NCBI GenBank assembly: GCA_963695545.1
Contig: OY968796.1
Location: forward strand, 800,001-864,000
Source of the DNA: Terriglobia bacterium
Lineage (GTDB): Bacteria; Acidobacteriota; Terriglobia; Acidiferrales; UBA7541
DNA: 64,000 nt
Direction of reading: 5' to 3'
Under the pieces are notes generated by a model. That model saw only the letters and a list, made by a program, of their open reading frames with translations, did no database searches and was not told the DNA's origin. Positions 1,385 through 57,435 of the stretch are shown here, one piece after another (position 1 is the first letter of the stretch; each line of letters opens with the position of its first letter). A program made the position numbers and the translations under genes.

Positions 1385-1560
1385 CCCCCGCCCGGTACCC
1401 AGCTCGTAAAAAATTGAAAATAATGGACTTCCAGGAAAAGTATGCCTTAGGAGTGCGCAATTGACTGAAATAAAAGGCCTTAGCTGGAGGTACATGTGCC
1501 ACGCTTTCAGTGATACGCGCAGGCTTCTGGAATCTCCTGAAAATAAATAACGTAGAAGGG
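1385..1560. repeat. Dispersed AT-rich intergenic element, copy A (most diverged)
   Basis: Shares CCCGGTACC, CTTCCAGGAAAAG, GAGTGCG and CTGAAAATAAAT with copy B in the same order. Confidence 0.7.
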
Positions 1561-1621
1561 CAAGAAAGGGATTCCACAGAGAAGGCGGGGATTTCGAATA
1601 TCTTTTCGAGTGCCGCCCTTA

Positions 1622-1650
1622 AGCCTAACACAAACCTAGCTCCGAGTCAA
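1622..1650 (-). promoter_or_regulatory. Sigma70-type promoter of element copy A
   Basis: Minus strand TTGACT (1650-1645), 17 nt, TAGGCT (1627-1622) with extended TGn. Confidence 0.55.
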
Positions 1651-9943: not shown

Positions 9944-11302
9944 TTAGAGCCCGGCCAAATCGTCGGGCGCGGCGACTTCAAAACGGGTGTGATTTGCGCG
10001 GAACACGAAATGGATGCGGTCGGTCGGGCCATTGCGTTGTTTGGCGATGATCAGCTCGGTCTTGGCGCGCTCTTCGGGAGCTTCTTCGGATTTGAACGCG
10101 CTGGGGCGGTGGATGAACATCACGACGTCGGCGTCCTGCTCGATGGCGCCGGATTCGCGCAAGTCGGCAAGCTGCGGGCGGCGGTCCTCGCGTTCGGGGG
10201 CCCGCGTCAATTGCGAAAGCACGAGGAAGGGCACTTTGAGTTCCTTCGCCAGCGCCTTCAGGCTGCGCGTGATGCTGGTGACTTCTTCATTGCGATTCGA
10301 GAAGCGGCCGCGCACGGAAATCAATTGCAGGTAATCGACGATCACAAGGTCGAGGCCTTTATCGCGCTTCAATCGCCGCGCCTTCGCGCCGATCTCCATC
10401 ACCGTGGTCCCGCCGGAATCGTCGATCCATAGCGGCGACTGCGAGAGCCGCGCCAGAGCGTCCGTCATCACGCGCCAATCCTCGCGCGAAAGATGCCCGG
10501 TGCGGAATTTGTGCGCGTCCACTCCGCCGAGCGACGAGAGCAAGCGCATCAGCAGCGATTCCTTGGACATTTCCAAGCTGAACACGGCCACGCGCGCCGG
10601 GTCGCTCGAGCGCACCGCGACATTTTCCGCCAGGTTCAACGCCAGCGCGGTTTTCCCCACCGAGGGCCGCGCCGCGAGAATGATCAATTCCGAAGGCTGC
10701 AAACCGGAAGTCAAATTGTCGAGTTCGGGATAGCCCGTCGCAAGGCCGGTGACCTGCCGCCCTTCGGTGATGATCCGCTCCAAGCGGCCCATGTTGCTAT
10801 TGACCACGTCTTTCATGCTGACGAGCCCCTCGCGCACGCGATCTTCAGCGAGTTGGAAAATGGAAGATTCAGCGCGATCGAGAACCGCGTCGGCGTCGTC
10901 TTCGGCTTCAAGCGCCTGCTGCTGGATCGAATGCGTGGTGTGAATCAGGCTGCGCAGGACCGATTTCTCTTTCACGATCCGCACGTAGTGCTCGATGTTG
11001 CTCACCTGCGGTACGCCGTCGATCAGCTGCGCGATGTAGGCGGCGCCGCCAGCGGCTTCGAGTTCGCCCGAGCGATGCAAGCGATCGGTGAGCGTGACAA
11101 GGTCGATCGCGTGCTGCGCCTCGCCCAGCACGATCATTTCCTGAAAGATGCGCCGGTGATTGTCGAGGAAAAAGTCTTCGGGGCGCAGGCGTTCAATCGC
11201 CGCGTCAAGCGCGTGGTTATCAAGCAGGATCGCGCCAAGCACGCTGCGCTCGGCTTCAAGACTCTGCGGCAGTGGTCGTTCGAGAACGGGTCCGGCAGCC
11301 AT
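9944..11302 (-). CDS. dnaB: Replicative DNA helicase
   Basis: PQSLEAERSVLG, AARPSVGKT Walker A, VDYLQL, LRESGAIEQDAD; start at ATG 11302. Confidence 0.97.
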   Translation of the reverse strand: MAAGPVLERPLPQSLEAERSVLGAILLDNHALDAAIERLRPEDFFLDNHRRIFQEMIVLGEAQHAIDLVTLTDRLHRSGELEAAGGAAYIAQLIDGVPQVSNIEHYVRIVKEKSVLRSLIHTTHSIQQQALEAEDDADAVLDRAESSIFQLAEDRVREGLVSMKDVVNSNMGRLERIITEGRQVTGLATGYPELDNLTSGLQPSELIILAARPSVGKTALALNLAENVAVRSSDPARVAVFSLEMSKESLLMRLLSSLGGVDAHKFRTGHLSREDWRVMTDALARLSQSPLWIDDSGGTTVMEIGAKARRLKRDKGLDLVIVDYLQLISVRGRFSNRNEEVTSITRSLKALAKELKVPFLVLSQLTRAPEREDRRPQLADLRESGAIEQDADVVMFIHRPSAFKSEEAPEERAKTELIIAKQRNGPTDRIHFVFRANHTRFEVAAPDDLAGL

Positions 11303-11496
11303 AAGTTTCGCCCTATCTTCGCCTATGTTGCCCGAGGAAGGCCACGCTGGCAAGGCCCCGGCGCGAGTGTCCGCATATCGAGACTACCTGATCGCTAAAA
11401 TCAGCGTCTGTGGAATTTATTTCGAACTGTGGAAGACTCGGGACGTATGAGCGACGCATCGCGGCCCTCTTCGGTTGAGCCGCGGCGATAAACGGT

Positions 11497-26387: not shown

Positions 26388-26616
26388 TCTCACAATCCTC
26401 GCATTGCGTTCGCCGCGCTCCGCGCATCCGCCACGCATTCTCGGCACGCGCAAATACTCATTGACGCCGCACGCCCGCTTGGTGCAATCTCCGGCCATCG
26501 CTTCCTCCAAGCCGCATCGATGACCGCGTGATCTGGTTTGCGGAAATTCGCTTGGAAGAATCGATCCCGTTCGCGCTCAATTTTAGAAACTCGACCCCCT
26601 GTGGAGGTGGGTACGC

Positions 26617-27561
26617 ATGAAGCGATGTCTTTTCCCCGCACTCGCTGCGCTTTCCCTGTGCCTTGCGGCCTCGGTAACCGTCCGAGCCCAAGACGCCGGC
26701 TCGATGCCAAACATGGCATCCGGCCAGATGTCCAGCCGGAATTCCAGCATGCCCGCGCCGCCGAACATCCTGATGATCGAGACGGACAACATCAAGCCCT
26801 ACAGCACGACTCCGTACGATAAAGTCGCCGCGGAGTACGTCGCCGTCGCGCGAAAGGCCAATCTGCCCGGCAGCGTAATCGCCATGGAAGCGCTCTCCGG
26901 CCCGAACCGCGCGCAGTACCTGTTCGCCCATGATTCCTTCGACGACATGCAACAGCAAGAAGACATCACCATGAAGGACGCCACCGCGACGGCGGCATTC
27001 GCGCACCTCGACAGCCTCGAGAACCCGTACGTCGCCGAAGTGCACAACGTGATCTGGCACTACCGCGAAGACCTCAGCAACAACGCCGCGGGCGCCGACA
27101 TTGCGCACTGCCGCTACTGGGAAACAATCGTCTTCCACATCAAGCCCGGCCACGACCAGCAGTTTGAGGAAAATGCAAAGATGTACCGCGATGCCTACGC
27201 CAAGATCGGCGTCAACCTCCCTTGGGCGACCTTTGAAGCCGAAATGGGCGCCACCGATTCCTACGTCGTGATTCTTCCGATGAAGTCGCTTAAGGAAGAA
27301 GACGAGGGACTCGCGCGCCAAAAAACGGTCATGGACGCGTTCGGCAGCGACGGCATGCATCACCTCGAGGAGACCGCCCGCGACGCTTACGCCAGTGTGG
27401 AAGATACACTCTGGGAAGTGAATCCCAAGACCAGCTACGTGACCAAGGAAATGATGGCCGCCAATCCGGACTTCTGGAATCCGAAACCCGCGGCCCCGAT
27501 GACCAAGGGCACAATGGTCAAGCCGGCGATGAAGCCCGCGCCGAAACCTGCCACTCCGTAG
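26617..27561 (+). CDS. Secreted hypothetical protein, probably two ferredoxin-like (NIPSNAP-like) domains
   Basis: Signal peptide; two similar halves (NIKPY... and HIKPGH...); SD GGAGG; downstream terminator. Confidence 0.7.
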   Translation: MKRCLFPALAALSLCLAASVTVRAQDAGSMPNMASGQMSSRNSSMPAPPNILMIETDNIKPYSTTPYDKVAAEYVAVARKANLPGSVIAMEALSGPNRAQYLFAHDSFDDMQQQEDITMKDATATAAFAHLDSLENPYVAEVHNVIWHYREDLSNNAAGADIAHCRYWETIVFHIKPGHDQQFEENAKMYRDAYAKIGVNLPWATFEAEMGATDSYVVILPMKSLKEEDEGLARQKTVMDAFGSDGMHHLEETARDAYASVEDTLWEVNPKTSYVTKEMMAANPDFWNPKPAAPMTKGTMVKPAMKPAPKPATP

Positions 27562-27588
27562 GCGAAAATTATTTCTAACCAGCATCGG

Positions 27589-27625
27589 GGGCGTCTCGAT
27601 CTCTCGGGGCGCCCTTTCTTATTTT
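27589..27625 (+). terminator. Rho-independent terminator
   Basis: 11-bp stem GGGCGTCTCGA/TCGGGGCGCCC (two G-U pairs), 4-nt loop, then TTTCTTATTTT; between convergent genes. Confidence 0.75.
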
Positions 27626-27672
27626 CACGTCTCATTTCACGCGCGACTCCGAACGGGAAAAACGCCGCATCG

Positions 27673-29040
27673 CTATGCGCACACCGCGCCCGATGCATCC
27701 CGCGCGTTGCGGCGCGGCAGAAAGGCTTGCGCCACGAGTAGCGCGTAAAACGGCGCATACGTCAGCCATTGCAGCGCGGTATCGAATCGCCATTCGCCCA
27801 AAATGCGATAAGGAATCAAAACGTTATACGAGAGACACACGAGCACCGTGAGCAGCAGCCAAGCTGTGTTCGGAAAAAAACAGAGCAGCGGCACGATCCA
27901 CGTGAAGTACCAGGGATAACCATTCGGCGCGAAGAGCAGGATCGCGCCCACGACAAGAAACGCCGCGCGCGCCGGATCCGCCCGCCGCGCCGCCAGCCAC
28001 AGCGCGAGACTCGCCACAACCACGCGTCCCGCCATCACCGCGAAACCATGCGAGCCCGAAGCCCATCGCAACACCGAATACAAGCTCGCATTGTTGTTCT
28101 GCCAAGCTGGCAAATAATATGCGTGCATAGTGCGCGCAAAGTCCGCCCATCCCGCGCGATAGGGCCACGCACACGCGAGGCCGACGGCTGCGGCAGCGGC
28201 CGCGGCGATCCATCCGCGCAGCCGACGCGGCCATCCCGCGCGCACGACCCATAGCGGCAGCAGCGCCGCCGGGAAGAATTTGGCCATGGCCCCGGCCGCC
28301 AGCGCCATCGTTGACACGATGGGACGCCTCCGTATAATCAGGATGGCGGCGACTAACGCGGCCACGGCCAGCGAATCGTTGTGGCCGCTGCCGGCGAATT
28401 CGACGATCACCAGGGGGTTCCAGGCGTAAATGGCCAAACGGGAAATCCTTTGGCCGGTCTCGCGGACCCAGACCCCGAGCATTCCGACGACAGCCAGGTC
28501 GGCTAGAACGAATGGTAATTTGAAGCCGACCGGCCCAGGCAACAAGCGCCACGTCGCGCGGAACACGAGCTCCAATAGAGGCGGATAGACGGTGGGCAAT
28601 TCGTGGGCGGGCATGATCTGCCATCCGCCGGCCGAGGAATTGCGCAAAGATTCGACCCGTGGGTCGTCCGGGCGCATCGAATAGGGGTTCCAGCCGGCGG
28701 CTTGGACTTGGGCGTCCCAGCGATAGCGGTAGAGGTCGGTTGAGAGCGTGGGCGCGAGCGGCAGAAGCGTCAGGCGAAAGGCCAGCGCGCCGAGCAGCAC
28801 GAGAAAGAATCCGGCGCGGGAGTCACGCAAATGTTCGAGCGCGTACAACGCGATGAAATAAACGACGCCAGCCGCAAGCGCGAGCGAGATGAAGCCGACG
28901 ACGTGCGCGGAGAGATCGCGCAAGCGCGCGACGCGGAGGAAGATGGCTTCCAGCGCGGCGAGCAGAAGCAAAGCCGCGACGGCTTGACCTCGCGGGAGGT
29001 TCGGCGCGTGGCCGGGCAAGCGATGATCGGAATTCAGCAC
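27673..29040 (-). CDS. Integral membrane GT-C glycosyltransferase (GT87-like)
   Basis: STDLYRYRWD, TVYPP, YAWNPL..EFAGSGHND, PWY; many TM helices. Confidence 0.85.
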   Translation of the reverse strand: MLNSDHRLPGHAPNLPRGQAVAALLLLAALEAIFLRVARLRDLSAHVVGFISLALAAGVVYFIALYALEHLRDSRAGFFLVLLGALAFRLTLLPLAPTLSTDLYRYRWDAQVQAAGWNPYSMRPDDPRVESLRNSSAGGWQIMPAHELPTVYPPLLELVFRATWRLLPGPVGFKLPFVLADLAVVGMLGVWVRETGQRISRLAIYAWNPLVIVEFAGSGHNDSLAVAALVAAILIIRRRPIVSTMALAAGAMAKFFPAALLPLWVVRAGWPRRLRGWIAAAAAAAVGLACAWPYRAGWADFARTMHAYYLPAWQNNNASLYSVLRWASGSHGFAVMAGRVVVASLALWLAARRADPARAAFLVVGAILLFAPNGYPWYFTWIVPLLCFFPNTAWLLLTVLVCLSYNVLIPYRILGEWRFDTALQWLTYAPFYALLVAQAFLPRRNARDASGAVCA

Positions 29041-29090
29041 GAAATGGCCGGTCCGCGCGGCCTGCGATTTTCAGGAGCAGCGTAGCGACG

Positions 29091-30731
29091 ATGAGACATC
29101 TGTTTCATCTCGGAGTTCTGGCGGCCGCGCAAGGGCCGCTGGCGAACTATTGGTCGAAGCTGACTGACGCGAATCGCAATCCGTTCCGCGGCCTTTATCA
29201 GATGAATGCGTTCGACCTGTGGCTGACGATCCCGTACTTCACGGTGTTGATCGTGCTCGCGGCGTTCGGGCTGCACCGCTACTGGTTGGTGTACCACTAT
29301 TTCAAGAATCGCCGGAATGTTCCCGGCCCGCCACCCGCGGTTGAACATTGGCCCAAGGTTACCATACAGCTTCCGGTCTATAACGAGCGCTACGTGGTCG
29401 AGCGATTGATCGATTCGATCGCGCGCTTCGATTATCCGCGCGAACTGCTCGAGGTGCAGGTGCTTGACGATTCCACCGACGAATCGCAGGAAGTGGCGCG
29501 CGATTGCGTGGAGCGTTACCGCGCACTGGGATTTCCGATCCGCTATATGCATCGCGACGACCGCACGGGATTCAAGGCCGGCGCGCTGGCGTACGGACTT
29601 GAAAGCGCCAGCGGCGAATTCATCGCCATTTTCGACGCCGATTTCGTGCCCAGCCCGGATTTTCTGCTGCGCACGCTGCCTTATTTTTCGACCGACCCGA
29701 AAATCGCCATGGTGCAAACGCGCTGGACGTATCTGAATCGCGATTACTCCGCGCTTACCGAAGTCGAATCCATTTTGCTCGACGGCCATTTCATTATCGA
29801 GCACGGCGCGCGCTCGCGCAGCGGCGTCTTCTTCAATTTCAACGGCACAGCCGGCGTGTGGCGGCGCACGGCGATCGACGATGCCTGCGGCTGGCAGCAC
29901 GACACGCTCACCGAGGACACGGACCTTTCTTATCGCGCGCAACTGCGCGGCTGGCGCTTCACGTATCTGCCCGACGTCGAATGTCCCTCCGAGCTGCCCG
30001 TGGAAATGAATTCGTTCAAGACGCAACAGGCGCGCTGGGCCAAGGGGCTGATCCAAACCGCGAAGAAAATCCTGCCGCGCGTGTTGCGCTCGGACCAACC
30101 CACGGCGGTGAAGGCCGAAGCCGTGATGCATTTGACGGCGAACATCAGCTACCCGCTGATGGTGGTGCTCTCAACGCTGCTGCTGCCGGCCATGATCGTG
30201 CGGTTCTATCAAGGCTGGTTCCAGATGATGCTGATCGATTTGCCGCTGTTCATGGCGTCGAGCTTTTCGATTTCGGGATTTTATCTTTCGGCGCAACGCG
30301 CGCTTTATCCGCGCACCTGGTACCGCTCGATCCTTTACATGCCATTCGTGATGGCCGTGGGCATCGGTCTTTCGGTGCGCAATGCCAAGGCCGTGCTGGA
30401 AGCGCTGTTCGGCGTGAAATCGGATTTCGCGCGCACACCGAAATACAGCATTGAAGGACAGTCCGGCAGTTGGCGCAAAAAATCATATCGCAATCGCGCG
30501 GGCTGGATGCCGTATCTGGAAGTCTTGCTCGGCCTGTATTTCGGGGCGACGGTGCTGTACGCGATCCAGAACGAAAGTTACATCACGGTTCCGTTCCTGC
30601 TGCTCTTCGTTTGGGGTTATCTCTACACCGGATTCATGTCGCTCGGGCAAGTGTGGTTCGAGCGCTTCCGTCTGGGCACGGATGACGCGGCCGAAACCCG
30701 CCCGGCCGCGACCGGCGTCCCGAGTTTCTAG
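29091..30731 (+). CDS. Processive GT2 glycosyltransferase (cellulose-synthase-like)
   Basis: QLPVYNE, DDSTD, GFKAGAL, FDADF, TED, QQARW (D,D,D,QxxRW) with flanking TM helices. Confidence 0.92.
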   Translation: MRHLFHLGVLAAAQGPLANYWSKLTDANRNPFRGLYQMNAFDLWLTIPYFTVLIVLAAFGLHRYWLVYHYFKNRRNVPGPPPAVEHWPKVTIQLPVYNERYVVERLIDSIARFDYPRELLEVQVLDDSTDESQEVARDCVERYRALGFPIRYMHRDDRTGFKAGALAYGLESASGEFIAIFDADFVPSPDFLLRTLPYFSTDPKIAMVQTRWTYLNRDYSALTEVESILLDGHFIIEHGARSRSGVFFNFNGTAGVWRRTAIDDACGWQHDTLTEDTDLSYRAQLRGWRFTYLPDVECPSELPVEMNSFKTQQARWAKGLIQTAKKILPRVLRSDQPTAVKAEAVMHLTANISYPLMVVLSTLLLPAMIVRFYQGWFQMMLIDLPLFMASSFSISGFYLSAQRALYPRTWYRSILYMPFVMAVGIGLSVRNAKAVLEALFGVKSDFARTPKYSIEGQSGSWRKKSYRNRAGWMPYLEVLLGLYFGATVLYAIQNESYITVPFLLLFVWGYLYTGFMSLGQVWFERFRLGTDDAAETRPAATGVPSF

Positions 30732-30753
30732 CGGCAAAATCCCCGGAAGAGTG

Positions 30754-30920
30754 CGGGGGCTATATACACCCCCGGTACCAAATTCATAAAATGATGAAAT
30801 CAAAGGGCTTCCAGGAAAAGAGTGCGGATGAGTGTGAAAATACGCGTGTTGATATCGCCTGGTTTCAATGAGATGCGCACTCTTTTGCAATGAACTGAAA
30901 ATAAATGGTTTGCAGGGGCG
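30754..30920. repeat. Dispersed AT-rich intergenic element, copy B
   Basis: AAAAGAGTGCGGATGAGTGTGAAAA (25 nt) and TGCGCACTCTTTTGCAATG identical to copy C. Confidence 0.85.
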
Positions 30921-31036
30921 ATTGGGGACAGAAAGTTGCGGGTTGACGAGTCGTTGCGCCTCGGCGGCTGGCCGGAGTCTAGCGAGAGCGAGGGTGAAAC
31001 TCGACGGCGAGAATGCGTGTTCGCAAGTCACAGCCG

Positions 31037-31066
31037 AGAATAACACGAAGCATACTGATACGTCAA
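31037..31066 (-). promoter_or_regulatory. Sigma70-type promoter of element copy B
   Basis: TTGACG, 18 nt, TATTCT with extended TGn; no convincing same-strand gene downstream. Confidence 0.55.
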
Positions 31067-31085
31067 CGTATATTTCTATTGTATT

Positions 31086-31120
31086 CGAATAGAATGGGTG
31101 AAAAATACCCATTCTATTCG
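31086..31120. repeat. Perfect 14-bp inverted repeat with 7-nt spacer
   Basis: CGAATAGAATGGGT-GAAAAAT-ACCCATTCTATTCG. Confidence 0.85.
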
Positions 31121-48014: not shown

Positions 48015-49423
48015 AGCTGTACCGTGCACACCGAAATAGAATTTGGATCGCACGCGTCCTCGCGCCGTCGCTGGCAATCGTCGCGATCGCTCTGCTCGCA
48101 AGCGCCGTCGCCGGACGCGAGCGCGAATCGACGTCCGTCTACGCGCTGCGCCGGCAACGACTGGCGTCGCAACTCCGTGCGCCAGTTGTGCTGTTCGGAC
48201 TCACCGGCCACGAAGAAGCCAATCCTTCTTACGTGTTCAACCAGGAGGAGAATTTCTACTATTTGACCGGCCACAACGAAGAAGGCGCGGCGATGGTGGA
48301 ATTGCCGCCCGACGCGAAATACAAAGGCGGAAACGTGGCCGCCGACATTCTCTTCCTTCCGCCGCGTGATCCCGAACAAGAGAAATGGAATGGTCCGCGC
48401 ATCGGGCCCGATGATCCCGGCGTCCGCGAACTCACCGGCTTCGCCGACGTCGAGCCGATCGGCAAGCTGCGCGATGTGCTGAGGCAACTGAAATCGACCT
48501 ACCCGACGATGTATACGCTGCTGCCCGCGCCTGACGAAGACGGGTATCCGCACGAAGCCGACGAACTCGCCTGGCTCAAGGACAACGTTCCCGGCGGCGA
48601 TTGGAAAGACGCGCGCGACGCCATCGGCGCGATGCGCCAGATCAAATCCACCGGCGAACTGGCGCTGATCCAACACGCCATCGACGTTTCCGTCGACGCG
48701 CAACTCGAAGCCATGAAAATGATGCGGCCGGGATTGTGGGAATATCAGGTGGCCGCGCGCATGGTGGAAATCCACGCCTGGGGCGGCTGCGAAGCCGAAG
48801 CCTACGCGCCGATCGTCGGCTCGGCTTTCAATTCCACGGTGATGCACTACAACAAGCTGGACCGCCAGATTCAGGATGGCGACATCGTCCTCCTCGACGT
48901 TGGCGGTCAATACTCCGGCTACGCGGCCGACATCACGCGCACTCTGCCGGCCAACGGAAAATTCACGCCGCGACAGCGCGAAATCTACGAAATCGTTCTG
49001 GGCGCGCAAAACGCCGCGTTCGCAGCGGCCAAGCCCGGCGCGCGCTTCACGCGTGGTTCCGGCAGCCTGTATCAAATCGCTTACGACTACATCAATTCGC
49101 ACGGCAAGGATCGCGAAGGCCGTTCGCTCGGCCGCTATTTCATCACCGGCTTGGGCCACCACATCGGCCTCGACGTTCACGACGCCGGCGATCCTTCGCG
49201 CACGCTCGAAGCCGGCATGACCATCACCCTCGAGCCGGGAATTTACATTCCGGAGGAAAATCTCGGCGTGCGCATCGAAGACGATGTTCTGATCACGCCC
49301 ACGGGCGCGAAATTCCTGACGGCTCGCCTGCCGCGCGATCCCGATGAAATCGAAAAGATTATGGCCGAAGGCAAAGCCGCGCGCGAAAGCGCGCCCACAA
49401 CGCCGGCGGGCGCCGCGCCGTGA
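48011..49423 (+). CDS. pepP: Xaa-Pro aminopeptidase (M24B) with signal-like N-terminus
   Basis: FYYLTG, LLDVGG...YAADITRT, GHHIGLDVHD, TLEPGIY, GVRIEDD; GTG start overlaps GNAT stop. Confidence 0.9.
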   Translation: MKLYRAHRNRIWIARVLAPSLAIVAIALLASAVAGRERESTSVYALRRQRLASQLRAPVVLFGLTGHEEANPSYVFNQEENFYYLTGHNEEGAAMVELPPDAKYKGGNVAADILFLPPRDPEQEKWNGPRIGPDDPGVRELTGFADVEPIGKLRDVLRQLKSTYPTMYTLLPAPDEDGYPHEADELAWLKDNVPGGDWKDARDAIGAMRQIKSTGELALIQHAIDVSVDAQLEAMKMMRPGLWEYQVAARMVEIHAWGGCEAEAYAPIVGSAFNSTVMHYNKLDRQIQDGDIVLLDVGGQYSGYAADITRTLPANGKFTPRQREIYEIVLGAQNAAFAAAKPGARFTRGSGSLYQIAYDYINSHGKDREGRSLGRYFITGLGHHIGLDVHDAGDPSRTLEAGMTITLEPGIYIPEENLGVRIEDDVLITPTGAKFLTARLPRDPDEIEKIMAEGKAARESAPTTPAGAAP

Positions 49424-49542
49424 ACGGTGTTCGAGCCTCGCGCAGTCGGGTATAATTGTTGGGTTTGGATGGCGCGCGGAACCTCGCAGTAGCGCCGCAG
49501 CTACGGCCCGCCGGGGTCAGCTTCAAGCTAAAGGGAGATTCC

Positions 49543-50112: not shown

Positions 50113-50154
50113 GATCGCGGAATCGCCGCGCGGCGCGAAAATCGGAGAGGACCC

Positions 50155-51006
50155 ATCGACGCCGCATCCAGCCTGGGACCTGCTTCGATCGTCGTGGCCA
50201 GCTACAACGACGCCGACGTCGTCGAACGCACGCTCGCGGCGCTCGCAAAGCAATCCTGCCCGAATTTTGAAATCGTCATCGCCGATGACGGTTCGCGCGA
50301 GCCTTACGCCGAGCTGCTTGAGCGCTGGGCGCCGCGATTTTCCTATCCCGTCCAGCATGTTCGCCACGAAGATTTGGGATTCCGCAAAGCGCGAATCTTG
50401 AATCGCGCCGTGCGCGTGAGCCGCTTCGATCGACTTATCTTCCTAGACATGGATTGCCTGCCGCATCGGGACTTTGTGCGCAATCACCTGCGCTTCGTGC
50501 GCCCCGGCACGGCGATCACCGGCCGCCGTGTGCATATCGACCGATCCGTCGCGTCCACCGTGGCACAGATCGCGGCGCGCGGCGTGGATCTGGGCCCGCT
50601 GAAACTTGTCTCCTTATGGATGGCAGGCAAGGCCCAATGCATCGAGCACGGACTTTTGCTGCCGGAAATGTTTGAATCCTCGCGGCGCGCGATTTTGGGC
50701 AGCAATTTCTCCATTGTGAAATTTGATCTCGAGCGCATCAATGGTTTCAACGAAGAAGTGCAGGGCGCGGGATGGGAAGATTCCGATGTGGATCTGCGGC
50801 TGCAATTGGCCGGCGTGAAGATTCGCGACCTCAAAAATCTGGCGATTCAATATCACATCACGCACGCGCAGCGCGTCGGCAACACCGCGGAAAGCCAGAA
50901 GCGTTACGACGAGATGCGTTCGCAGCGCGTATTGCGCGCGCCGAAGGGCCTTGCGGAAATCGTGGCAGGAGATTTCGAGCGATTCGAGTACGGCACGGCG
51001 CGCTGA
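50155..51006 (+). CDS. GT2 glycosyltransferase (first canonical start is GTG 50194; ATC 50155 proposed)
   Basis: SIVVASYN, IADDGS, GFRKARILN, FLDMDC, NGFNE..GWEDSD. Confidence 0.85.
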   Translation: MDAASSLGPASIVVASYNDADVVERTLAALAKQSCPNFEIVIADDGSREPYAELLERWAPRFSYPVQHVRHEDLGFRKARILNRAVRVSRFDRLIFLDMDCLPHRDFVRNHLRFVRPGTAITGRRVHIDRSVASTVAQIAARGVDLGPLKLVSLWMAGKAQCIEHGLLLPEMFESSRRAILGSNFSIVKFDLERINGFNEEVQGAGWEDSDVDLRLQLAGVKIRDLKNLAIQYHITHAQRVGNTAESQKRYDEMRSQRVLRAPKGLAEIVAGDFERFEYGTAR

Positions 51007-51032
51007 CGCAAGTGCGTCAGCGCTGTTGCCGC

Positions 51033-52364
51033 TTAGCGCGGCGCCTGCGCCGCGCCTTGACCGAAAACGCGCTGGAAGATCGCGTCTACCGAGCGAAGCT
51101 GGCGATCGAGATCGAATGCGCGCGCAATCGCCGCGGCGTCAAGAAATCGCGCGATGCGCGGGTCCGCGGCAATGCGCTCGCGAAAATTCGATTCCGCCTC
51201 CCACGCGGCCATGGCGTGCTCTTGCACCCACTTGTAGGAATCTTCACGCGGCGCTCCGGCTTCCACCAAATCCTGCAACAGCTGCCCCGAGAAAACCAAA
51301 CCGTGCGTGGCTTCAATGTTGCGCAACATGCGCGCCGGAAAAACGCGCATGCCGGCGATGACTTCCGTGGTGCGCGCGAGCATGTAGTCCGCGAGGATCG
51401 TGGAATCGGGCAGAATAATGCGCTCGACCGAGCTGTGCGAGATGTCGCGCTCGTGCCAGAGCGCCACGTCTTCAAGCACGGGCTGCGCGTTCGCGCGCAC
51501 CACGCGCGCCAGACCGCAAATTTGCTCCGAGGCGACGGGATTGCGTTTGTGCGGCATCGCGGAACTTCCACGCTGCTCGCCCGCGAACGGCTCCTCGGCT
51601 TCGCGAACTTCAGTGCGCTGAAGATGGCGAATCTCGAGAGCGAACTGCTCGAGCGTTGAGGCGATTTCGGCGAGCACGCAAACGTAGTGCGCGTGGCGAT
51701 CGCGCGCGATCACTTGCGTGCTCACCGGCGCAGGATCGAGACCCAGGCGCGCGCAAATCGCCGCTTCGACTTCGGGGCCGAGATGCGAAGAGTTGCCCAC
51801 CGCGCCCGACATTTTGCCGACAGCAAGATCGCGCGCGGCGTGGCCAAAGCGCGCGAGATTGCGGCGATTGGCGTCGAACCAATTCGCGAGTTTCAGGCCG
51901 AAGGTGATGGGCTCGGCGTGAATGCCGTGCGTGCGTCCGATCTGCGGCGTGTGCTGGAATTCGCGCGCGCGGCGCTCGAGCACTTCGCCGAGGCGCACAA
52001 GATCGTGCTCGATAATGCGCGACGCTTCGCGAATGGAAAGCGACTGCGCGGTGTCTACAACGTCGTTGGAAGTGAGCCCATAATGCAACCAGCGCGCTGC
52101 GCTGGGATCGCCGATGGTTTCGCCGACGGCCATCGTGAAAGCGATGACGTCGTGAAGCACTCGCGCTTCGATTTCCGCGATGCGCGCAACCACTCCGGCA
52201 TCCACGCGCGCGCGCTGGCGAATCGTCGCAGCCGCGTCTCGCGGCACAACGCCGCGCTCGGCAAGCGTTTCCGTCGCGGCGAGCTCCACTTCGAGCCAGC
52301 GCCGGAACTTGCTTTCCTCGCTCCAGACGCGGCCCATCTCTTCGCGCGTGTATCGCGGGATCAA
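51033..52364 (-). CDS. purB: Adenylosuccinate lyase
   Basis: IPRYT.EEM, HYGLTSNDVVDT, GRTHGIHAEP, GSSAMPHKRNP; SD GAAGGAG before TTG 52364. Confidence 0.97.
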   Translation of the reverse strand: MIPRYTREEMGRVWSEESKFRRWLEVELAATETLAERGVVPRDAAATIRQRARVDAGVVARIAEIEARVLHDVIAFTMAVGETIGDPSAARWLHYGLTSNDVVDTAQSLSIREASRIIEHDLVRLGEVLERRAREFQHTPQIGRTHGIHAEPITFGLKLANWFDANRRNLARFGHAARDLAVGKMSGAVGNSSHLGPEVEAAICARLGLDPAPVSTQVIARDRHAHYVCVLAEIASTLEQFALEIRHLQRTEVREAEEPFAGEQRGSSAMPHKRNPVASEQICGLARVVRANAQPVLEDVALWHERDISHSSVERIILPDSTILADYMLARTTEVIAGMRVFPARMLRNIEATHGLVFSGQLLQDLVEAGAPREDSYKWVQEHAMAAWEAESNFRERIAADPRIARFLDAAAIARAFDLDRQLRSVDAIFQRVFGQGAAQAPR

Positions 52365-52518
52365 TTCAGGCTCCTTCGGATTCAGCCGGCGCATCGCGGC
52401 CGGAACTTAGAAAACGGCGGGGAATTCCCTGTCCTATGATACCCGATGCGGCGCGATTTTCGGGCAAAAACCGGACTGTGCGTGCAATCAAGGGTGCTAT
52501 GCTGAATTTCGCTAACGA

Positions 52519-54597
52519 GTGAAATTGCAGGAGGCGCTGATGCGCCGGCCCGTACCCGCCGCAGTTGCCGCGGCATTACTTGCCATGACATTTGCCGCCG
52601 CCGTCCCGATCGCCACGCCGCAGGAGAAAACTCCTGCGCCGCGCGTTTACCTGGTGGGCCGAATCGGATCGTACGCCGTCGTGCAGGTGTATGCCGACGG
52701 ATTCGATCAGTTGACGCCGAACGAGCGCGTACTCGCCTATCATTTGGCCGAAGCTGGAATCGCCGGCGATCCCATTTATTACGATCAAATCGCGCCGTAC
52801 GGCCTGGAACTAAAACGTCTGCTGGAAGGAATCTGGACGCACCCGGAAGGAATTCCTCCCGCGACGCTCAAGAAAATTCAGGATTACACGCAGCTCTTCT
52901 GGATCGGGCACGGCAATTACAATCCCGACAGCTCCGAAAAGTTTCTGCCGGAATTCACGCAAGTTGAATTGCGCGACGCAGCGCGCCGCGCACTGCACAA
53001 CGGCGCCGATTTCGGCGTAAAGGACAACAAGGGTCTGGATTTTCTACTGGAGCGGCTGGATCAGCCGATTTTCGATGCTAATTTCCGCCCGCAATTGACG
53101 GTGAAGAATCCGCCGCCGGGCCAGGATATTTTGACGGCGAGCGCCAACAATCTTTATGAAAACGTCGCGCAGGACGATCTTGCCGGATTCACGGAGCACT
53201 ACGCACTGAACTCACGCCTCGAAAAGCGCGGCGGCCACGTCTTTGAGAACGTGTGGCGCGCGGGCACGCCGGACCGGCGCGTTCCGCCCGGACTCTACGC
53301 GGCGCAGATCGGACGCATCATTGAACATCTGGGCGCGGCGGCCGCCGTGGCGCCGCCGATGGAAGCCGCGGTTTACCTTAAATTGATTCGCTACTACGAA
53401 ACCGGCGAGAAGGCCGATTGGTACGACTACAACATCGCGTGGTTGCAGACGGCATCTACGGTGGATGCCATCAACGGATTCATCGAGGTGTATCTGGATC
53501 CGCGCGGCGAAAAAGGCGCGTACGAATCTGTCGTGAGTTTCGTGGACCAGAACGAGACGCAATTGATGCGTCAATTCGCCGCGAACGCCCAATATTTTGA
53601 GCAGCGCGCGCCGTGGCTCGATGAATATAAGAAGCAAAACGTTCAGCCGCCGGTCGCGAACGTGATCACCGTGGTCTCCGAAGCGGGCAACGGCGGACCG
53701 CTTTCCGCGGCGGGCATCAACCTGCCGAACGAGCAGGATATTCGCCAGCAATACGGAACCAAGAGCATGCTGCTTTTGAACGTGACGACGGCGTGGTCAC
53801 AAGCGGCCGGGCAGCGCGCGCTCGAGGAATTTGCGTCGAGCGATGAGGAAAAGGAGCGCGGGCGAAAATACGGCCTTGAGGTGCGGAAGCTCGTGATCGC
53901 CATGCATGAAGTTTTGGGGCACGGCTCGGGAAGTGTCAGCGAGAAACTCATGTCCGATCCGCGAACATATTTGAAGGAATACTACTCGACGCTTGAAGAG
54001 GCGCGCGCGGATCTGGTGGCGCTGTGGGATTTCACCGATCCGAAACTGACCGAGCTTGGAATACAAGATCAGCAGGAATTGATGAAGACGGCTTACGATG
54101 CCGAGGCGCGCGCGGCGCTCGTGATGCTCTATCGTTATCCGCAGGGCGATCAGATTGTGGAGGACCACGATCGCGGAACGCAGATGATCGTCGGCTACTT
54201 GATGGAGAATTGCGGATGCATTGAGGCGGTGACGCGCGACGGGAAGCTTTATCTGCACGTGACCGATTACGACAAAATGCATCAGGGAATCGGCACGTTG
54301 CTCGCGGAACTGATGCGCATCAAGGCTGAGGGCGATTATCCGGCGATCCAATCGCTGGTGGACACTTACGGCGTGAAGCTAAATCCCGAATGGCGCGATC
54401 AAGTGGTGGCGCGGGCGAAGGCCATCGATCTTCCGACGCGCGGGGTTTTTCTTTCGCCGCTGATCGAGCCGGTGTACGACGCCGCGCACCACGTTGTGGA
54501 TGCGCGCATCCATTATCCGAGCAGTCTTGCGGAAGTGATGCTCGAGTATTCGCGCGAGAGTCTCGGTTACCTGCCCGCGGCGCCGGCGGCGCAATAA
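52519..54597 (+). CDS. Dipeptidyl peptidase III (M49) with signal peptide
   Basis: NGFIEVYLDP.G.KG.YE, GINLPN, HEVLGH (HEXXGH), EEARAD. Confidence 0.92.
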   Translation: MKLQEALMRRPVPAAVAAALLAMTFAAAVPIATPQEKTPAPRVYLVGRIGSYAVVQVYADGFDQLTPNERVLAYHLAEAGIAGDPIYYDQIAPYGLELKRLLEGIWTHPEGIPPATLKKIQDYTQLFWIGHGNYNPDSSEKFLPEFTQVELRDAARRALHNGADFGVKDNKGLDFLLERLDQPIFDANFRPQLTVKNPPPGQDILTASANNLYENVAQDDLAGFTEHYALNSRLEKRGGHVFENVWRAGTPDRRVPPGLYAAQIGRIIEHLGAAAAVAPPMEAAVYLKLIRYYETGEKADWYDYNIAWLQTASTVDAINGFIEVYLDPRGEKGAYESVVSFVDQNETQLMRQFAANAQYFEQRAPWLDEYKKQNVQPPVANVITVVSEAGNGGPLSAAGINLPNEQDIRQQYGTKSMLLLNVTTAWSQAAGQRALEEFASSDEEKERGRKYGLEVRKLVIAMHEVLGHGSGSVSEKLMSDPRTYLKEYYSTLEEARADLVALWDFTDPKLTELGIQDQQELMKTAYDAEARAALVMLYRYPQGDQIVEDHDRGTQMIVGYLMENCGCIEAVTRDGKLYLHVTDYDKMHQGIGTLLAELMRIKAEGDYPAIQSLVDTYGVKLNPEWRDQVVARAKAIDLPTRGVFLSPLIEPVYDAAHHVVDARIHYPSSLAEVMLEYSRESLGYLPAAPAAQ

Positions 54598-54633
54598 ACC
54601 TGCGGCAAAACTCAAGCTCTCAAAACACAAACT

Positions 54634-55434
54634 CTAGAGTTCGATGGGATCGAGCGGGATTTGCTGAGAAGCGACCCAGAGCTTGCCGGCGAAATCGGCG
54701 CGGCGGCCGAGGGCTTCTTCAGCGGAGATGCGCGCGACGTCGGGATTGTTATTGTTTTCGGAGAGATGCGCGAGGACCAGGAAACGAGCGCGGGCGTCAA
54801 AGCCTTCGGCGTCGGCGAGAAATTCGCTGACGGTGTGATTGGAAAGATGGCCGGTGCGACTCATCACGCGCTGCTTGACGTGCCACGGATAGGGACCAAC
54901 CTTGAGCATTTCGAGATCGTGATTCGATTCGAGAACCAAACAATCGGAATCGCGCAAATGGTGTTTCACGAGTTCGGGCAAATAGCCGAGATCGGTGGCC
55001 ACGGCGACTTTCGATCCATTGGAACAGAAAGTGAAGCCCAAAGGATCGGCGGCATCGTGCGGAATCGAGAATGGCGAGACTTCGATATCGCCGACGATGA
55101 ATTTCTGCCCGGCGCGAATGTGTTCGACGCGCGTGAGGCGCTTGGCCGAGCCATCGGGCAGGATGCGTTCGATTTCGTAGTGCGTGGCTTCGGTGAGATA
55201 AACGGGCGCGCGCCAGAAAACCGAGGCTTGCACGAGGCCGCCGATGTGGTCGGAATGCTCGTGAGAGAGAACGATGCCGTCGAGTGTGTCCGGGCGGCAG
55301 CCGAGGGAATCGAGGCGGCGAAGAAGTTCTTTTTTGCTGAGGCCGGCATCCACGAGAAGTCGGGTGTGCTCGGTCTCAAGCAACGTGCAATTGCCTGAGC
55401 TGCCGGATGCGAGAATCGAAATCCTGAACGAGAT
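54634..55434 (-). CDS. MBL-fold metallo-hydrolase, YycJ/WalJ family (ATC start proposed; first canonical start TTG 55383)
   Basis: ILASGSSGN, VDAG, SHEHSDH, PHDA.DP, TDLG, LESNHD, GHLSN, LAHLS. Confidence 0.9.
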   Translation of the reverse strand: MSFRISILASGSSGNCTLLETEHTRLLVDAGLSKKELLRRLDSLGCRPDTLDGIVLSHEHSDHIGGLVQASVFWRAPVYLTEATHYEIERILPDGSAKRLTRVEHIRAGQKFIVGDIEVSPFSIPHDAADPLGFTFCSNGSKVAVATDLGYLPELVKHHLRDSDCLVLESNHDLEMLKVGPYPWHVKQRVMSRTGHLSNHTVSEFLADAEGFDARARFLVLAHLSENNNNPDVARISAEEALGRRADFAGKLWVASQQIPLDPIEL

Positions 55435-55570
55435 GCCGAGCCCCCAGATGACCTTAAAGCACTGCGCTCCGCGCAGCCAGGCGCGCGGACGAGCGCGCGG
55501 CGTCCGTTAAGGATGATCGCAAACTGCGCATCGGGCGTCAATGCGGTGGCTCGGCGATGCGCGGTGATGG

Positions 55571-56848
55571 TCATGAGGCGAGCAAGTCGCGAGTGAGATG
55601 GAAACCGTTGGGTGGGCCGACGACGGCTGCGGCGATTCGTTCGGGCGCGAAAGTTTCTTTGGCGATCTGCTGAATTTCTTCGGCGGTTACGGCTTCGATG
55701 GCCACGAGCAATTCTTCGACGCTGAAGAAACGGCCGAAATAGAGTTCGTGGCGGGCGAGTTGCGACATGCGCGCGCCGCTCGATTCAAGCGAGAGCACGA
55801 GCGAGCCTTTGAGCTGGTCTTTGCCGCGGCGCAACTCTTCGGCGGCGAGCGGTTCGTCGCGCAGGCTGCGAAATTCTTGGAGGACCGAGCGAATGAGCTG
55901 CTCGGCAGTTTTCGGCGCGGTGCCGGCGTAGACGGAGAGCACGCCGGCGTCGGAATAAGGATTGACGTCGCTGAACACGGAGTAGGCCAGGCCCTGGCGC
56001 TCGCGGATATTTTGAAAGAGGCGAGAAGACATGCCGCCGCCGAGGACGTTGTTGAGCAGAGAGAGGGCGAAGCGTCGCTCGTCGGCGATGCGATACGACG
56101 GAACGCCGAGGCAAATGTGCGATTGGCCGAGCTCGTTCTTGCTGCGCGAGACCAGCGCCGGCTCGGGACGCGGCGCGGGATCGATGGGCGCCTGAGGAAT
56201 CGATGACGAGGAGCCAAATTCGCGGGCGGCAAGTTCGACCAGGCGCGCGTGCTCGATGCGTCCGGCGGCGGTGATGATCGCGTTGTTCGGAGCGTAACCG
56301 GAGCGGAAGGTGTCGCAGAGCGCCTGGCGGGTGAAGGCGGAAACGCTTTCAGGCGTGCCGAGAATCGGGCGGCCGAGAGAATGCGCGGGCCAAAAACCCT
56401 GCGTGAATATTTCGTGCACGACGTACTCGGGATTATCTTCCTCCATGCGAATTTCCTCGAGCACGACCTGCTTTTCGCGCTGCAATTCCTCGCCGTCAAA
56501 GCGCGGGCGGAGAACCAGATCGGCGAGAAGATCGAAGGCGATGGGCAAGTGTTCGTCGAGGACCTTGGCGTTGTAGCAGACGATCTCTTTTTCAGTGAAG
56601 GCGTCAAGCAGGCCGCCGATGGAATCCATTTCGCGGGCGATTTGTTCGGCGGTGCGGCGCTCGGTGCCTTTGAAAAGCATGTGCTCGATAAAGTGGGAAA
56701 GACCGGCGCGGTCGGCGGGCTCGCGGCGCGAACCGGCGCGCAGCCAGATGCCAACGGAAACAGAACGCACGTGGGGCATGGGCTCGGTGACGATCACCAG
56801 ACCGTTGGGCAGAACATCGCGCTCGATTGTGCGTGCGGGTTCAGGCAT
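55571..56848 (-). CDS. M16 (pitrilysin-family) zinc peptidase
   Basis: GLSHFIEHMLFKGT (HXXEH), LGGGMSSRLFQ.IRE..GLAYSV. Confidence 0.95.
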   Translation of the reverse strand: MPEPARTIERDVLPNGLVIVTEPMPHVRSVSVGIWLRAGSRREPADRAGLSHFIEHMLFKGTERRTAEQIAREMDSIGGLLDAFTEKEIVCYNAKVLDEHLPIAFDLLADLVLRPRFDGEELQREKQVVLEEIRMEEDNPEYVVHEIFTQGFWPAHSLGRPILGTPESVSAFTRQALCDTFRSGYAPNNAIITAAGRIEHARLVELAAREFGSSSSIPQAPIDPAPRPEPALVSRSKNELGQSHICLGVPSYRIADERRFALSLLNNVLGGGMSSRLFQNIRERQGLAYSVFSDVNPYSDAGVLSVYAGTAPKTAEQLIRSVLQEFRSLRDEPLAAEELRRGKDQLKGSLVLSLESSGARMSQLARHELYFGRFFSVEELLVAIEAVTAEEIQQIAKETFAPERIAAAVVGPPNGFHLTRDLLAS

Positions 56849-56971
56849 GTGTTGGGTGTGAACTTGATTCTGGCACACGCTGGTTGCGAGCGCCACAGAG
56901 CCAGCGCGGGCTACGTCCTGCGAGCGGGTTCGAGGGGGTTTGCGCGTCACGGATGTCTCTCGATGAGCGGA

Positions 56972-57136
56972 GGGGTATATATACCCCCGGTATGTTTTTG
57001 CGAAAGTACTGAAACTACAGGGGATGCAGCAAAAGAGTGCGGATGAGTGTGAAAACGCAGGGAGTTAAAAATCAAGCTGTTCAATGAGTTGCGCACTCTT
57101 TTGCAATGGATTGAAAACAAAGGGGGTTGCGGGGGC
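56972..57136. repeat. Dispersed AT-rich intergenic element, copy C
   Basis: Perfect palindrome GGGGTATATATACCCC (56972-56987); GCAAAAGAGTGCG / CGCACTCTTTTGC inverted repeat; homologous to copies A and B. Confidence 0.85.
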
Positions 57137-57242
57137 ACTTTGCGCGTGTCAAACGCGCATTTCGGATGCCAAGGCTGTGAGGGGCGCGAGTGGGGGACCG
57201 GACGTGATGACAATTCGAAATGTACAAGGGCGAACATATACA

Positions 57243-57271
57243 ACCATAGCATATGTAAATTGTAATGTCAA
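57243..57271 (-). promoter_or_regulatory. Sigma70-type promoter of element copy C (may also drive the M16 peptidase)
   Basis: TTGACA, 17 nt, TATGGT with extended TGn. Confidence 0.65.
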
Positions 57272-57435
57272 TTAGTTTGTGAGTATTCGAAACAATTTCC
57301 ACAGGCACGCTTTGCTTACGGACCGGATGCATTTCCCAGAATCGCGCTATATCCAAGAAGTGGCGAGAGCAAGTCCGCCACCAATGTATAATCCCGTTTC
57401 CAATGGTGAGTTCCGCGCTGCGCGGGGAGGAATGA

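What the first reader, a model, noticed from the sequence alone, without database searches (positions are those of the whole stretch)
1415..1553. Boxes in the element are helically phased: copies differ by whole-turn indels
Seen, counting TGAAA starts. Copy B: 30795, 30835, 30896 (gaps 40, 61). Copy C: 57010, 57050, 57112 (40, 62). Copy A: 1415, 1466, 1538 (51, 72). A is longer by 10-11 bp in both intervals, and the distance from the inverted TTCA to box3 is exactly 32 bp in all three (1506/1538, 30864/30896, 57080/57112). Several boxes approximate the established IHF consensus WATCARNNNNTTR (TTTCAA-TTTT-TTA, TTTCAG-TCAA-TTG, TTTCAG-TTCA-TTG, TTTCAA-TCCA-TTG, GTTCAA-TGAG-TTG). Inference: selection acts on double-stranded DNA geometry, as in an array of sites for an IHF/HU-like bending protein forming a wrapped complex. 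This favours a DNA role over an RNA role, but three copies is a small sample.
Basis: partly seen in the sequence, partly recalled or inferred. Interest (0 to 1): 0.8.

Follow-up and report, generated by a model that had tools for sequence, protein, structure and literature searches.

The report
Dispersed candidate replication origins in Acidobacteria
About 110 evenly spaced DNA cassettes with helically phased boxes are spread along this soil bacterium's chromosome, and most sit next to a flip in strand composition, which likely means the chromosome is copied from many start sites rather than the single one textbooks describe.

Summary
The phasing is real and genome-wide. In 81 full copies, box gaps are 40/50/51, 27-28/37-38 and 34/44 bp, with one off-phase copy. 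Related arrays give 30, 39-41, 49-51, 59-60 and 69-71, about 10.1 bp per turn. An RNA hairpin is unsupported. The array is half of a ~350-bp cassette: a sigma-70 promoter fires into it (75 of 81 copies), and a leaderless frame stays open through it (68 of 73).

New here: 112 cassettes in two families are evenly spaced (CV 0.55 vs 0.98). The neutral GC skew is a sawtooth, and 81 of 96 upward jumps lie about 3.5 kb downstream of a cassette (33 expected). The same jump appears in 28 of 29 loci from 22 other acidobacterial genomes. There is no jump at dnaA or parS and no global skew. A many-origin model fits the skew (r 0.63); a single-oriC model does not (r 0.004).

Best reading: dispersed replication origins (about 60%, inferred). 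An intact-looking oriC and the unexplained offset argue caution. The scan found this repeat before on other DNA of this genome (e1-7689235), read there as promoter cassettes.

The parts
1385..1563 (.). Copy A box array (family 1, long variant 51/38/34): C-run end, boxes at 1415, 1466, inverted 1505, 1538
1622..1650 (-). Copy A promoter-like site (-35 at 1645-1650, -10 at 1622-1627) firing into the array; degenerate, without the upstream palindrome or start codon
   Evidence: score 15.2; cassette HMM only E=0.1
30757..30925 (.). Copy B box array (40/27/34)
31037..31089 (-). Copy B promoter (-35 at 31061-31066, -10 at 31037-31042) with upstream TTCGAA palindrome
30483..31031 (-). Copy B leaderless open frame (182 codons) running through the array; peptide not conserved
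56972..57140 (.). Copy C box array (40/28/34)
57214..57303 (-). Copy C promoter (-35 at 57266-57271, -10 at 57243-57248), flanked by two TTCGAA palindromes, with a DnaA-like box at 57295-57303
56947..57237 (-). Copy C leaderless open frame (96 codons) through the array
26500..30500 (.). Approximate zone of the upward GC-skew jump (step 0.31, centre near 28,500) downstream of copy B; inferred initiation zone
51000..56500 (.). Approximate zone of the upward GC-skew jump (step 0.54, centre near 53,750) downstream of copy C; inferred initiation zone. Copy A's jump (0.50) lies about 750 bp before the window start

Best explanation
The element is half of a ~350-bp promoter-plus-phased-array cassette, present about 110 times at even ~37-kb spacing, and it most likely acts as a dispersed chromosomal replication origin: a host IHF-like protein would wrap the boxes, translated transcription through the array would activate it, and two forks would start in a zone about 2-8 kb downstream. 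Shown: whole-turn spacing, the inward promoter, the open leaderless frame, the even spacing, and upward skew jumps at a fixed side and distance. Inferred: the identity of the binding protein; that the skew records fork direction with the G-rich strand leading; that transcription activates the site. The 3-5 kb offset is unexplained. My guess is a helicase loaded at the array that moves, or is pushed, downstream before the first primer is laid.
For: Skew at four-fold sites, corrected for gene strand, reaches +0.33 on the promoter side (z about 10) and -0.15 at 10-12 kb on the other side. It is the same for genes on either strand, stronger in typical-codon genes, and visible without gene calls. 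Between units it declines from +0.23 to -0.25, an N-shape. 96 up-jumps >0.3; site-shuffled data give about 1 peak >0.25 against 110 observed. 61 of 96 lie 0-10 kb downstream of a family-1 copy, against 6 on the mirror side. A second family, found by a genome-wide promoter search and a BLAST among the 25 unexplained jumps, accounts for 15 of those 25. Total 81 of 96, rotation null 33.5+-4.2, maximum 46. Both sides change sign even when the next unit points the same way. Simulated forks from the units: r=0.63 (ceiling 0.97; rotated maximum 0.11); single oriC r=0.004; one-sided process at best 0.49. Replicated in 28 of 29 scorable loci from 22 other acidobacterial genomes, against 10 of 18 in non-acidobacterial controls, and seen in stretches of G001, G008 and G167. 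126 other consensus promoters show no jump. Even spacing: CV 0.55-0.56 vs 0.98, 0 of 20,000 intergenic-site draws. The DnaA-box variant found upstream of dnaA also lies upstream of 27 of 75 cassette promoters (background 0.022 per 75 bp). In G114 the largest up-jump of the same sign falls on a parS cluster with three DnaA-like boxes. Acidobacteria have the lowest global strand bias of 24 phyla (PMC4613354, Table 1).
Against: All evidence is compositional; no fork was observed. The genome keeps a normal-looking oriC (DnaA boxes and trio-like repeats between dnaA and dnaN), one dnaA and one dnaB, KOPS-like polarity peaking near 3.37-3.4 Mb, and 55.6% gene orientation along an ori-ter axis, yet there is no jump at dnaA. 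The jump is not at the array but about 3.5 kb away, and the distance does not track the downstream gene run (rho 0.015) or the end of the open frame (rho 0.14, p 0.31). Genes are not co-oriented with the local G-rich strand (46-48%). The skew is purine-type (A>T on the G-rich strand) in the four family genomes but keto-type in G114, so the sign convention may not transfer. 23 of 112 units lack a clear jump and 15 of 96 jumps lack a unit. An array in G114 at 865 kb has no jump beside it. Promoter-to-array phasing holds in family 1 (Z 22.7; unique lengths 9.1) but not in family 2 or in pooled relatives. No initiator protein was identified.
Confidence: 0.6

Rival explanations
1. The cassettes are loading sites for a non-replicative motor or repair process (an SMC-like extruder, helicase or strand-directed repair) that moves out both ways and biases mutation; replication still starts at oriC.
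For: oriC, KOPS-like polarity and the gene-orientation axis are retained. In G114 the main jump is exactly on the parS cluster, 30 kb from dnaA, and fades over about 200 kb. Even spacing suits chromosome-organising sites. The purine-type skew differs from G114.
Against: This genome's own parS (1,279.6 kb) has no jump. oriC replication would have to leave no trace (coefficient 0.001 vs 0.21). No such motor is known to me to create a +-0.3 neutral skew (recalled). Resection from a break would give downward, not upward, jumps (inference).
Confidence: 0.18
2. The sign is reversed: replication starts at random places and the cassettes are polar fork traps, where head-on transcription stops incoming forks a few kb short of the promoter.
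For: It gives the same sawtooth and a natural reason for the downstream offset. Genes converge on the jump zone (0.31-0.34 vs 0.58-0.64).
Against: It needs a C-rich leading strand. G022 switches weakly to G-rich right of dnaA (-0.035 to +0.031), and G114 does so strongly at its parS/DnaA-box site. 126 other consensus promoters cause no jump.
Confidence: 0.1
3. Mobile or reusable promoter/leader cassettes regulated by a looping repressor; the skew is incidental.
For: Consensus promoter in 75 of 81 copies (3 of 300 background), flanking palindromes, open leader frame.
Against: Only 63 of 91 have a co-directional gene downstream, against about 62% expected for large intergenic gaps (arithmetic). 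The strongest skew lies upstream of the promoter and is independent of gene strand. It does not explain the even spacing. Sites are kept in relatives (14 of 26 loci vs 14% background), and copies are 66% identical.
Confidence: 0.07
4. Recombination or inversion sites that chop a globally skewed chromosome into blocks, or entry points for foreign DNA.
For: Coding density drops to 0.61 in the 2 kb upstream of the promoter. IHF-like arrays are typical of recombination sites (recalled).
Against: Up-jumps >0.5 outnumber down-jumps 39 to 6, the decline between jumps is gradual, the jump is offset from the element, long-range octamer polarity is intact, and the skew is stronger in typical-codon genes.
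Confidence: 0.03
5. A structured non-coding RNA or a conserved small protein.
For: Inverted arms can pair, and a promoter and an open frame exist.
Against: 0 compensatory vs 79 broken cells, with 7 central positions unpaired. No Rfam match. Different copies use different frames across the same boxes.
Confidence: 0.02

Closest known systems
Skew N-domains of mammalian genomes (PMC3320577, passages read)
   Same: Abrupt upward skew jumps with linear decline between them, read as origins with shifting fork polarity.
   Different: Here about 37-43 kb rather than megabase scale, in a bacterium, and each jump is tied to a defined repeated sequence.
Multi-origin, DnaA-independent replication in Synechocystis 6803 and Nostoc 7120 (PMC7198777, passages read)
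   Same: dnaA is present, global skew is irregular, and replication starts at many sites.
   Different: In the passages read the mechanism is called unknown and no origin sequence is given. Here a sequence-defined cassette marks each inferred origin; there is no experiment here.
Proposed double origins in bacteria (PMC4403523, whole text read)
   Same: Skew minima used to infer extra origins. The paper warns that local minima need not be origins.
   Different: Those are two DnaA-box clusters per chromosome. Here there are about 110 sites, with at most one or two DnaA-like boxes each.
Transcription-activated origins: phage lambda ori, T4 promoter-plus-unwinding-element origins, E. coli oriK R-loop replication (all recalled)
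   Same: A promoter fires into or through a protein-bound array; lambda ori lies inside a translated frame.
   Different: Initiation is inferred kilobases downstream and does not track transcript ends; an RNase HI-like gene is present; no cognate initiator was found.
RIB/BIME-1 repeats with IHF sites (title seen in the reference list of PMC3733652; details recalled) and Correia elements / putative mobile promoters (PMC3575422, abstract read)
   Same: About 100 dispersed intergenic copies carrying IHF-like sites or promoters.
   Different: Three to five phased boxes, not placed at 3' ends of transcription units, low identity between copies, conserved positions, even spacing and the skew link.
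lambda cosB-type packaging arrays (recalled)
   Same: The same box is interleaved with a second repeat upstream of a terminase in two phage contigs, as expected for a host bending-protein site.
   Different: The chromosomal cassettes have no terminase or capsid genes attached as a rule (window ORFs; not tested genome-wide).

Membership tests
   8 perfect and 132 one-mismatch sites in 81 copies vs 0.8 and 21 shuffled; the most conserved letters (TGAAA core) are not the E. coli ones, and some half-sites have 3 rather than 4 spacer bases
IHF binding-site array | Host encodes IHF alpha/beta | tested here: inconclusive
   3 PF00216 genes; two best match IHF at 105 and 79 bits, below the cut-offs of 111-120
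IHF binding-site array | Whole-turn phasing of sites | tested here: met
IHF binding-site array | Protein binding and bending | not testable with these tools
   needs EMSA or footprinting
Canonical oriC | Upward GC-skew switch | tested here: met
   but offset by a median 3.5 kb
Canonical oriC | Cluster of DnaA boxes with adjacent DnaA-trios (PMC6669920, passages read) | tested here: not met
   one or two boxes in 27 of 75 copies; no trio run seen by eye after them
Canonical oriC | Unique, beside dnaA or other replication genes | tested here: not met
   112 units; none at dnaA
R-loop-primed origins (oriK, T4 type) | Promoter upstream of the initiation zone | tested here: met
   75 of 81
R-loop-primed origins (oriK, T4 type) | Initiation at the transcript end, or RNase HI loss | tested here: not met
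   no correlation with gene run or frame end; RNase HI-like gene present
REP/BIME/RIB | Location at the 3' end of transcription units | tested here: not met
   11 of 91 between convergent genes, 34 between divergent genes
REP/BIME/RIB | GTAG/CGTC-tagged palindromes and a linked tyrosine transposase | not tested
   no tag evident in alignment A1; no formal search
MITE / Correia-type mobile repeat | Terminal inverted repeats and near-identical recent copies | tested here: not met
   ends are unrelated; median identity 0.66, maximum 0.94
MITE / Correia-type mobile repeat | Target-site duplication, empty sites | tested here: inconclusive
   sites often shared with relatives (14 of 26); duplications not searched
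Structured ncRNA | Rfam match or compensatory base changes | tested here: not met

The most novel reading that the evidence does not exclude
A large group of soil Acidobacteria replicates its chromosome like a eukaryote, from about 100 evenly spaced, sequence-defined origins. Each origin is a transcription-activated, protein-wrapped array whose forks start kilobases downstream, while oriC, parS and the ori-ter axis are kept mainly for segregation. Similar promoter-plus-phased-array repeats in other low-skew phyla may do the same.
Probability: 0.55. Interest if true: 0.98.

Novelty: categorically new. Interest (0 to 1): 0.9.

Why it matters
Whether any bacterium naturally uses many defined chromosomal origins is an open question (posed as such in PMC4403523). 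The cyanobacterial cases read here have no named origin sequence. This gives about 110 candidate sites with coordinates, a defined anatomy and sharp predictions, in an abundant soil lineage. It would also explain why Acidobacteria show the weakest global strand bias among 24 phyla: strong local skews cancel. Even if the process is not replication, a repeat that imprints a +-0.3 neutral strand asymmetry over tens of kilobases points to a DNA transaction I could not find described.

Tried and rejected
Rfam and ARAGORN: nothing in the window.

RNA hairpin: no covariation.

Orientation of cassettes against the oriC replichores: 55 of 112, random.

A dif-like search with loose recalled motifs was uninformative. 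parS as the cause in this genome: no jump.

Jump position against gene run or frame end: no correlation. Promoter-array phasing outside family 1: not seen. In family 2 the linker length is instead fixed modulo 3 in 17 of 17.

The family-1 model found only the 5 same-genus genomes among 20 relatives. It missed G008, which does carry a family-2-like array, so model blanks are not absence. The promoter model had 2 weak hits in 120 phylum genomes. An exact array pattern hit 11 of 150 class genomes, 8 of them among 21 of the own family.

Plasmid and phage BLAST: nothing relevant. Six viral hits to the promoter pattern were fetched but not examined. No DciA match in a 94%-complete genome; Rho and PriA are present.

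No RNA holder listed. DNA contigs of three runs of one study cover all 30 bins of window 49,000-58,000 and break at the repeat; one run may be the source of the window.

Repeats near G114's other jumps were REP-like hairpins; no cassette was found there.

Literature: 10 full-text searches found no description of this element or of multi-origin replication in Acidobacteria. Most subscription papers are not searched, and no supplements were read. The original RIB paper is not held, so its details are recalled.

Full report
OBSERVATION. The window's genome is one 4.16-Mb contig of 60.6% GC. Named records with the same element are labelled Acidobacteriota, mostly Terriglobia or Ca. Acidiferrales, so I infer that lineage. 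Iterated nhmmer gives 91 copies, 81 full length. I placed the boxes by a chain of matrices with free gaps and corrected 4 mis-chained copies by hand. Gaps are 40/50/51 (56/16/9 copies), 27/28/37/38 (33/38/1/9) and 34/44 (61/19), plus one degenerate 38. No other 2-9 bp change occurs in these three intervals, although copies are 66% identical at the median and the neighbouring linker takes 48 lengths. Caveat: on a tree these changes need only 1, 1 and 10 events.

Independent arrays fill that gap. In 56 of 88 other regions where boxes were called (second family, relatives), 105 same-orientation gaps are 30, 39-41, 49, 51, 59-60 or 69-71 (some regions share a genome). The 17 pooled distinct lengths fit 10.1-10.3 bp per turn, and 0 of 20,000 random sets did as well (the off-phase copy was omitted). 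A repeat near 10.1 would suit DNA wrapped on a protein surface or A-tract DNA (recalled, inference).

DNA OR RNA. In 56 short-type copies the inverted arms show 0 compensatory changes and 79 broken cells, and 7 central positions do not pair. Rfam has no match. IHF-consensus sites are enriched (8 perfect and 132 one-mismatch vs 0.8 and 21 shuffled; consensus recalled). Three IHF/HU genes exist, and two score best to IHF, below cut-off. The same box occurs in 5 viral contigs: in two it forms an array just upstream of an HTH gene, terminase and portal, in two it lies 1 kb upstream of a primase/helicase, and in one it stands alone. That is where a host bending protein would be used (inference; hosts unknown).

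THE WHOLE CASSETTE. 75 of 81 copies have a consensus sigma-70 promoter on the opposite strand, 91-374 bp beyond box 3, firing into the array. Background is 3 of 300 intergenic stretches. TTCGAA palindromes sit upstream of the -35 and, in one subtype, after the start. The DnaA-box variant seen upstream of dnaA lies upstream of 27 of 75 promoters. 73 of 75 have ATG/GTG five or six bases after the -10. That frame is open through the whole array in 68 of 73, against 14 and 10 for the other frames. It is open in 7 of 7 testable family-2 copies and 26 of 36 relatives' loci (6 and 6 for the other frames). Copies use different frames over the same boxes, so the act of translation, not the peptide, appears selected. 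Rho is present, and protection from Rho is my inference. Promoter-to-array distance is phased in family 1 (period 10.5-10.8, Z 22.7; 9.1 on unique lengths) but not in family 2 or pooled relatives. Its 'usually in front of genes' is not above expectation (63 of 91 vs about 62%; gene calls are my own codon-model calls).

EVEN SPACING. The 91 copies have a mean gap of 45.7 kb and CV 0.56. Random or intergenic-site draws give 0.98+-0.10 and never reach it (0 of 100,000; 0 of 20,000 in four nulls). With family 2 there are 112 units (115 before merging 3 pairs within 5 kb), mean gap 37 kb, CV 0.55. Positions are often shared with relatives (14 of 26 scorable loci vs 14% background).

THE SKEW. At four-fold sites, corrected for gene strand, GC skew has no global component (at most 0.01) but is a sawtooth locally. 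In the element frame it is +0.33 on the promoter side, crosses zero 4-5 kb past the array and reaches -0.15 at 10-12 kb; 82 of 91 copies have the positive side. It is the same in genes of either strand, stronger in typical-codon genes and present without gene calls. Steps >0.5 are upward 39 times and downward 6 times. Of 96 up-jumps >0.3, 61 lie 0-10 kb downstream of a family-1 copy and 6 on the mirror side.

The 25 jumps far from any copy gave a test. A genome-wide search with the promoter half, and a BLAST among their intergenic DNA, revealed a second family with the same promoter and a different array with boxes 39 bp apart. It accounts for 15 of the 25. In all, 81 of 96 jumps have a unit upstream (null 33.5+-4.2, maximum 46; median offset 3.5 kb). 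89 of 112 units pass a descriptive jump threshold for which no null was run. One length subtype (50/27-28) does so less often (7 of 15 vs 56 of 66, p 0.003). 126 other consensus promoters show no jump. Simulated bidirectional forks starting 4.5 kb downstream of each unit, best of 30 parameter sets, give r=0.63 (ceiling 0.97; rotated maximum 0.11). A single oriC gives 0.004 and a one-sided process at best 0.49.

OTHER GENOMES. Skew rises across the site in 28 of 29 scorable acidobacterial loci (22 genomes by record title), against 10 of 18 others. Some may overlap the handle genomes. Stretches of G001 (400 kb), G008 and G167 (200 kb each) show arrays, most of them beside jumps. G022 and G024, outside the class, are flat (sd 0.04-0.06). 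G114 (same class, other family) has a strong sawtooth. Its largest jump is on a parS cluster with three DnaA-like boxes 30 kb from dnaA and fades over about 200 kb; its one array in 500 kb has no jump. The full cassette was found mainly in the own family. A published survey lists Acidobacteria lowest of 24 phyla for strand bias (PMC4613354, section 2.2 read).

MECHANISM. Upward jumps with linear decline are the accepted signature of origins with shifting fork polarity (PMC3320577, passages). I commit to dispersed origins at 60%. An IHF-like protein would wrap the array, translated transcription would open or license it, and forks would start in a broad zone downstream.

Against this: oriC looks intact (DnaA boxes plus trio-like repeats between dnaA and dnaN, by eye; compare PMC6669920, passages). 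Octamer polarity and gene orientation keep a single axis. There is no jump at dnaA or at this genome's parS. The offset follows neither gene runs nor frame ends. Genes are not co-oriented with local skew. The A/T part of the skew has the opposite sign to G114. An RNase HI-like gene is present, and no initiator was found. The rivals are a non-replicative motor (18%), reversed-sign fork traps (10%), regulatory cassettes (7%), recombination sites (3%) and ncRNA (2%).

NOVELTY. The element fails the tested defining features of oriC, RIB/BIME, MITE and structured RNA. It works like a transcription-activated, bending-protein-wrapped origin. Multi-origin replication is reported in some cyanobacteria by an unknown mechanism (PMC7198777, passages), and double origins have been proposed in silico (PMC4403523, whole text). 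Ten searches found no report of this element or of such replication in Acidobacteria; subscription papers and supplements were not seen. Papers seen: PMC3733652 (passages), PMC4613354 (passages and one section), PMC3025954 (passages), PMC4403523 (whole), PMC3320577, PMC7198777 and PMC6669920 (passages), PMC3575422 (abstract).

Noticed in passing
window 9944-11353 (-): The genome's single dnaB helicase gene lies in this window, 8 kb from copy A.
   Followed up: partly
G000:C1:1363100-1365250: oriC-like region: DnaA-box variants upstream of dnaA, and a box followed by trio-like repeats between dnaA and dnaN, with no skew jump.
   Followed up: partly
G000:C1:1279625-1279710: Two parS sites beside parB, 84 kb from dnaA; the best gene-orientation split (0.557) falls at about 1.28 Mb.
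   Followed up: partly
G000:C1 about 3.37-3.40 Mb: KOPS-like purine octamers switch polarity here; no dif site was pinned down.
   Followed up: partly
G114:C1:590001-1090000: Very strong local skew (+-0.55) switching at the parS cluster; an abundant REP-like hairpin repeat seems to change orientation there; further jumps near 597 and 675 kb have no cassette found.
   Followed up: partly
L226:4700-5500, L230, L227/L229:4021-6018: Phage contigs with arrays of the same box, interleaved with a second short repeat upstream of terminase, or in a 2-kb non-coding gap upstream of a primase/helicase.
   Followed up: partly
G000:C1:1387500-1387950: Copy 1386894 has lost its promoter, and what looks like a small transposase-like frame and REP-like hairpins follow it, yet it has one of the largest jumps (0.70).
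   Followed up: no
G000:C1 jumps near 2, 445, 490, 654, 752, 949, 1442, 2239, 3924 and 4138 kb: Ten up-jumps with no cassette within 12 kb; possibly lost cassettes or a third family.
   Followed up: partly
L224:1192-1851 (-): RNase HI-like domain fused to a short C-terminal domain, downstream of a zinc-ribbon coiled-coil gene.
   Followed up: no
L078, L115, L141: Three records labelled as other phyla carry acidobacterial-type cassettes; mis-binning or transfer.
   Followed up: no
window 51408-51708: Depth spike in the laid contigs, suggesting another repeat family at this spot.
   Followed up: no
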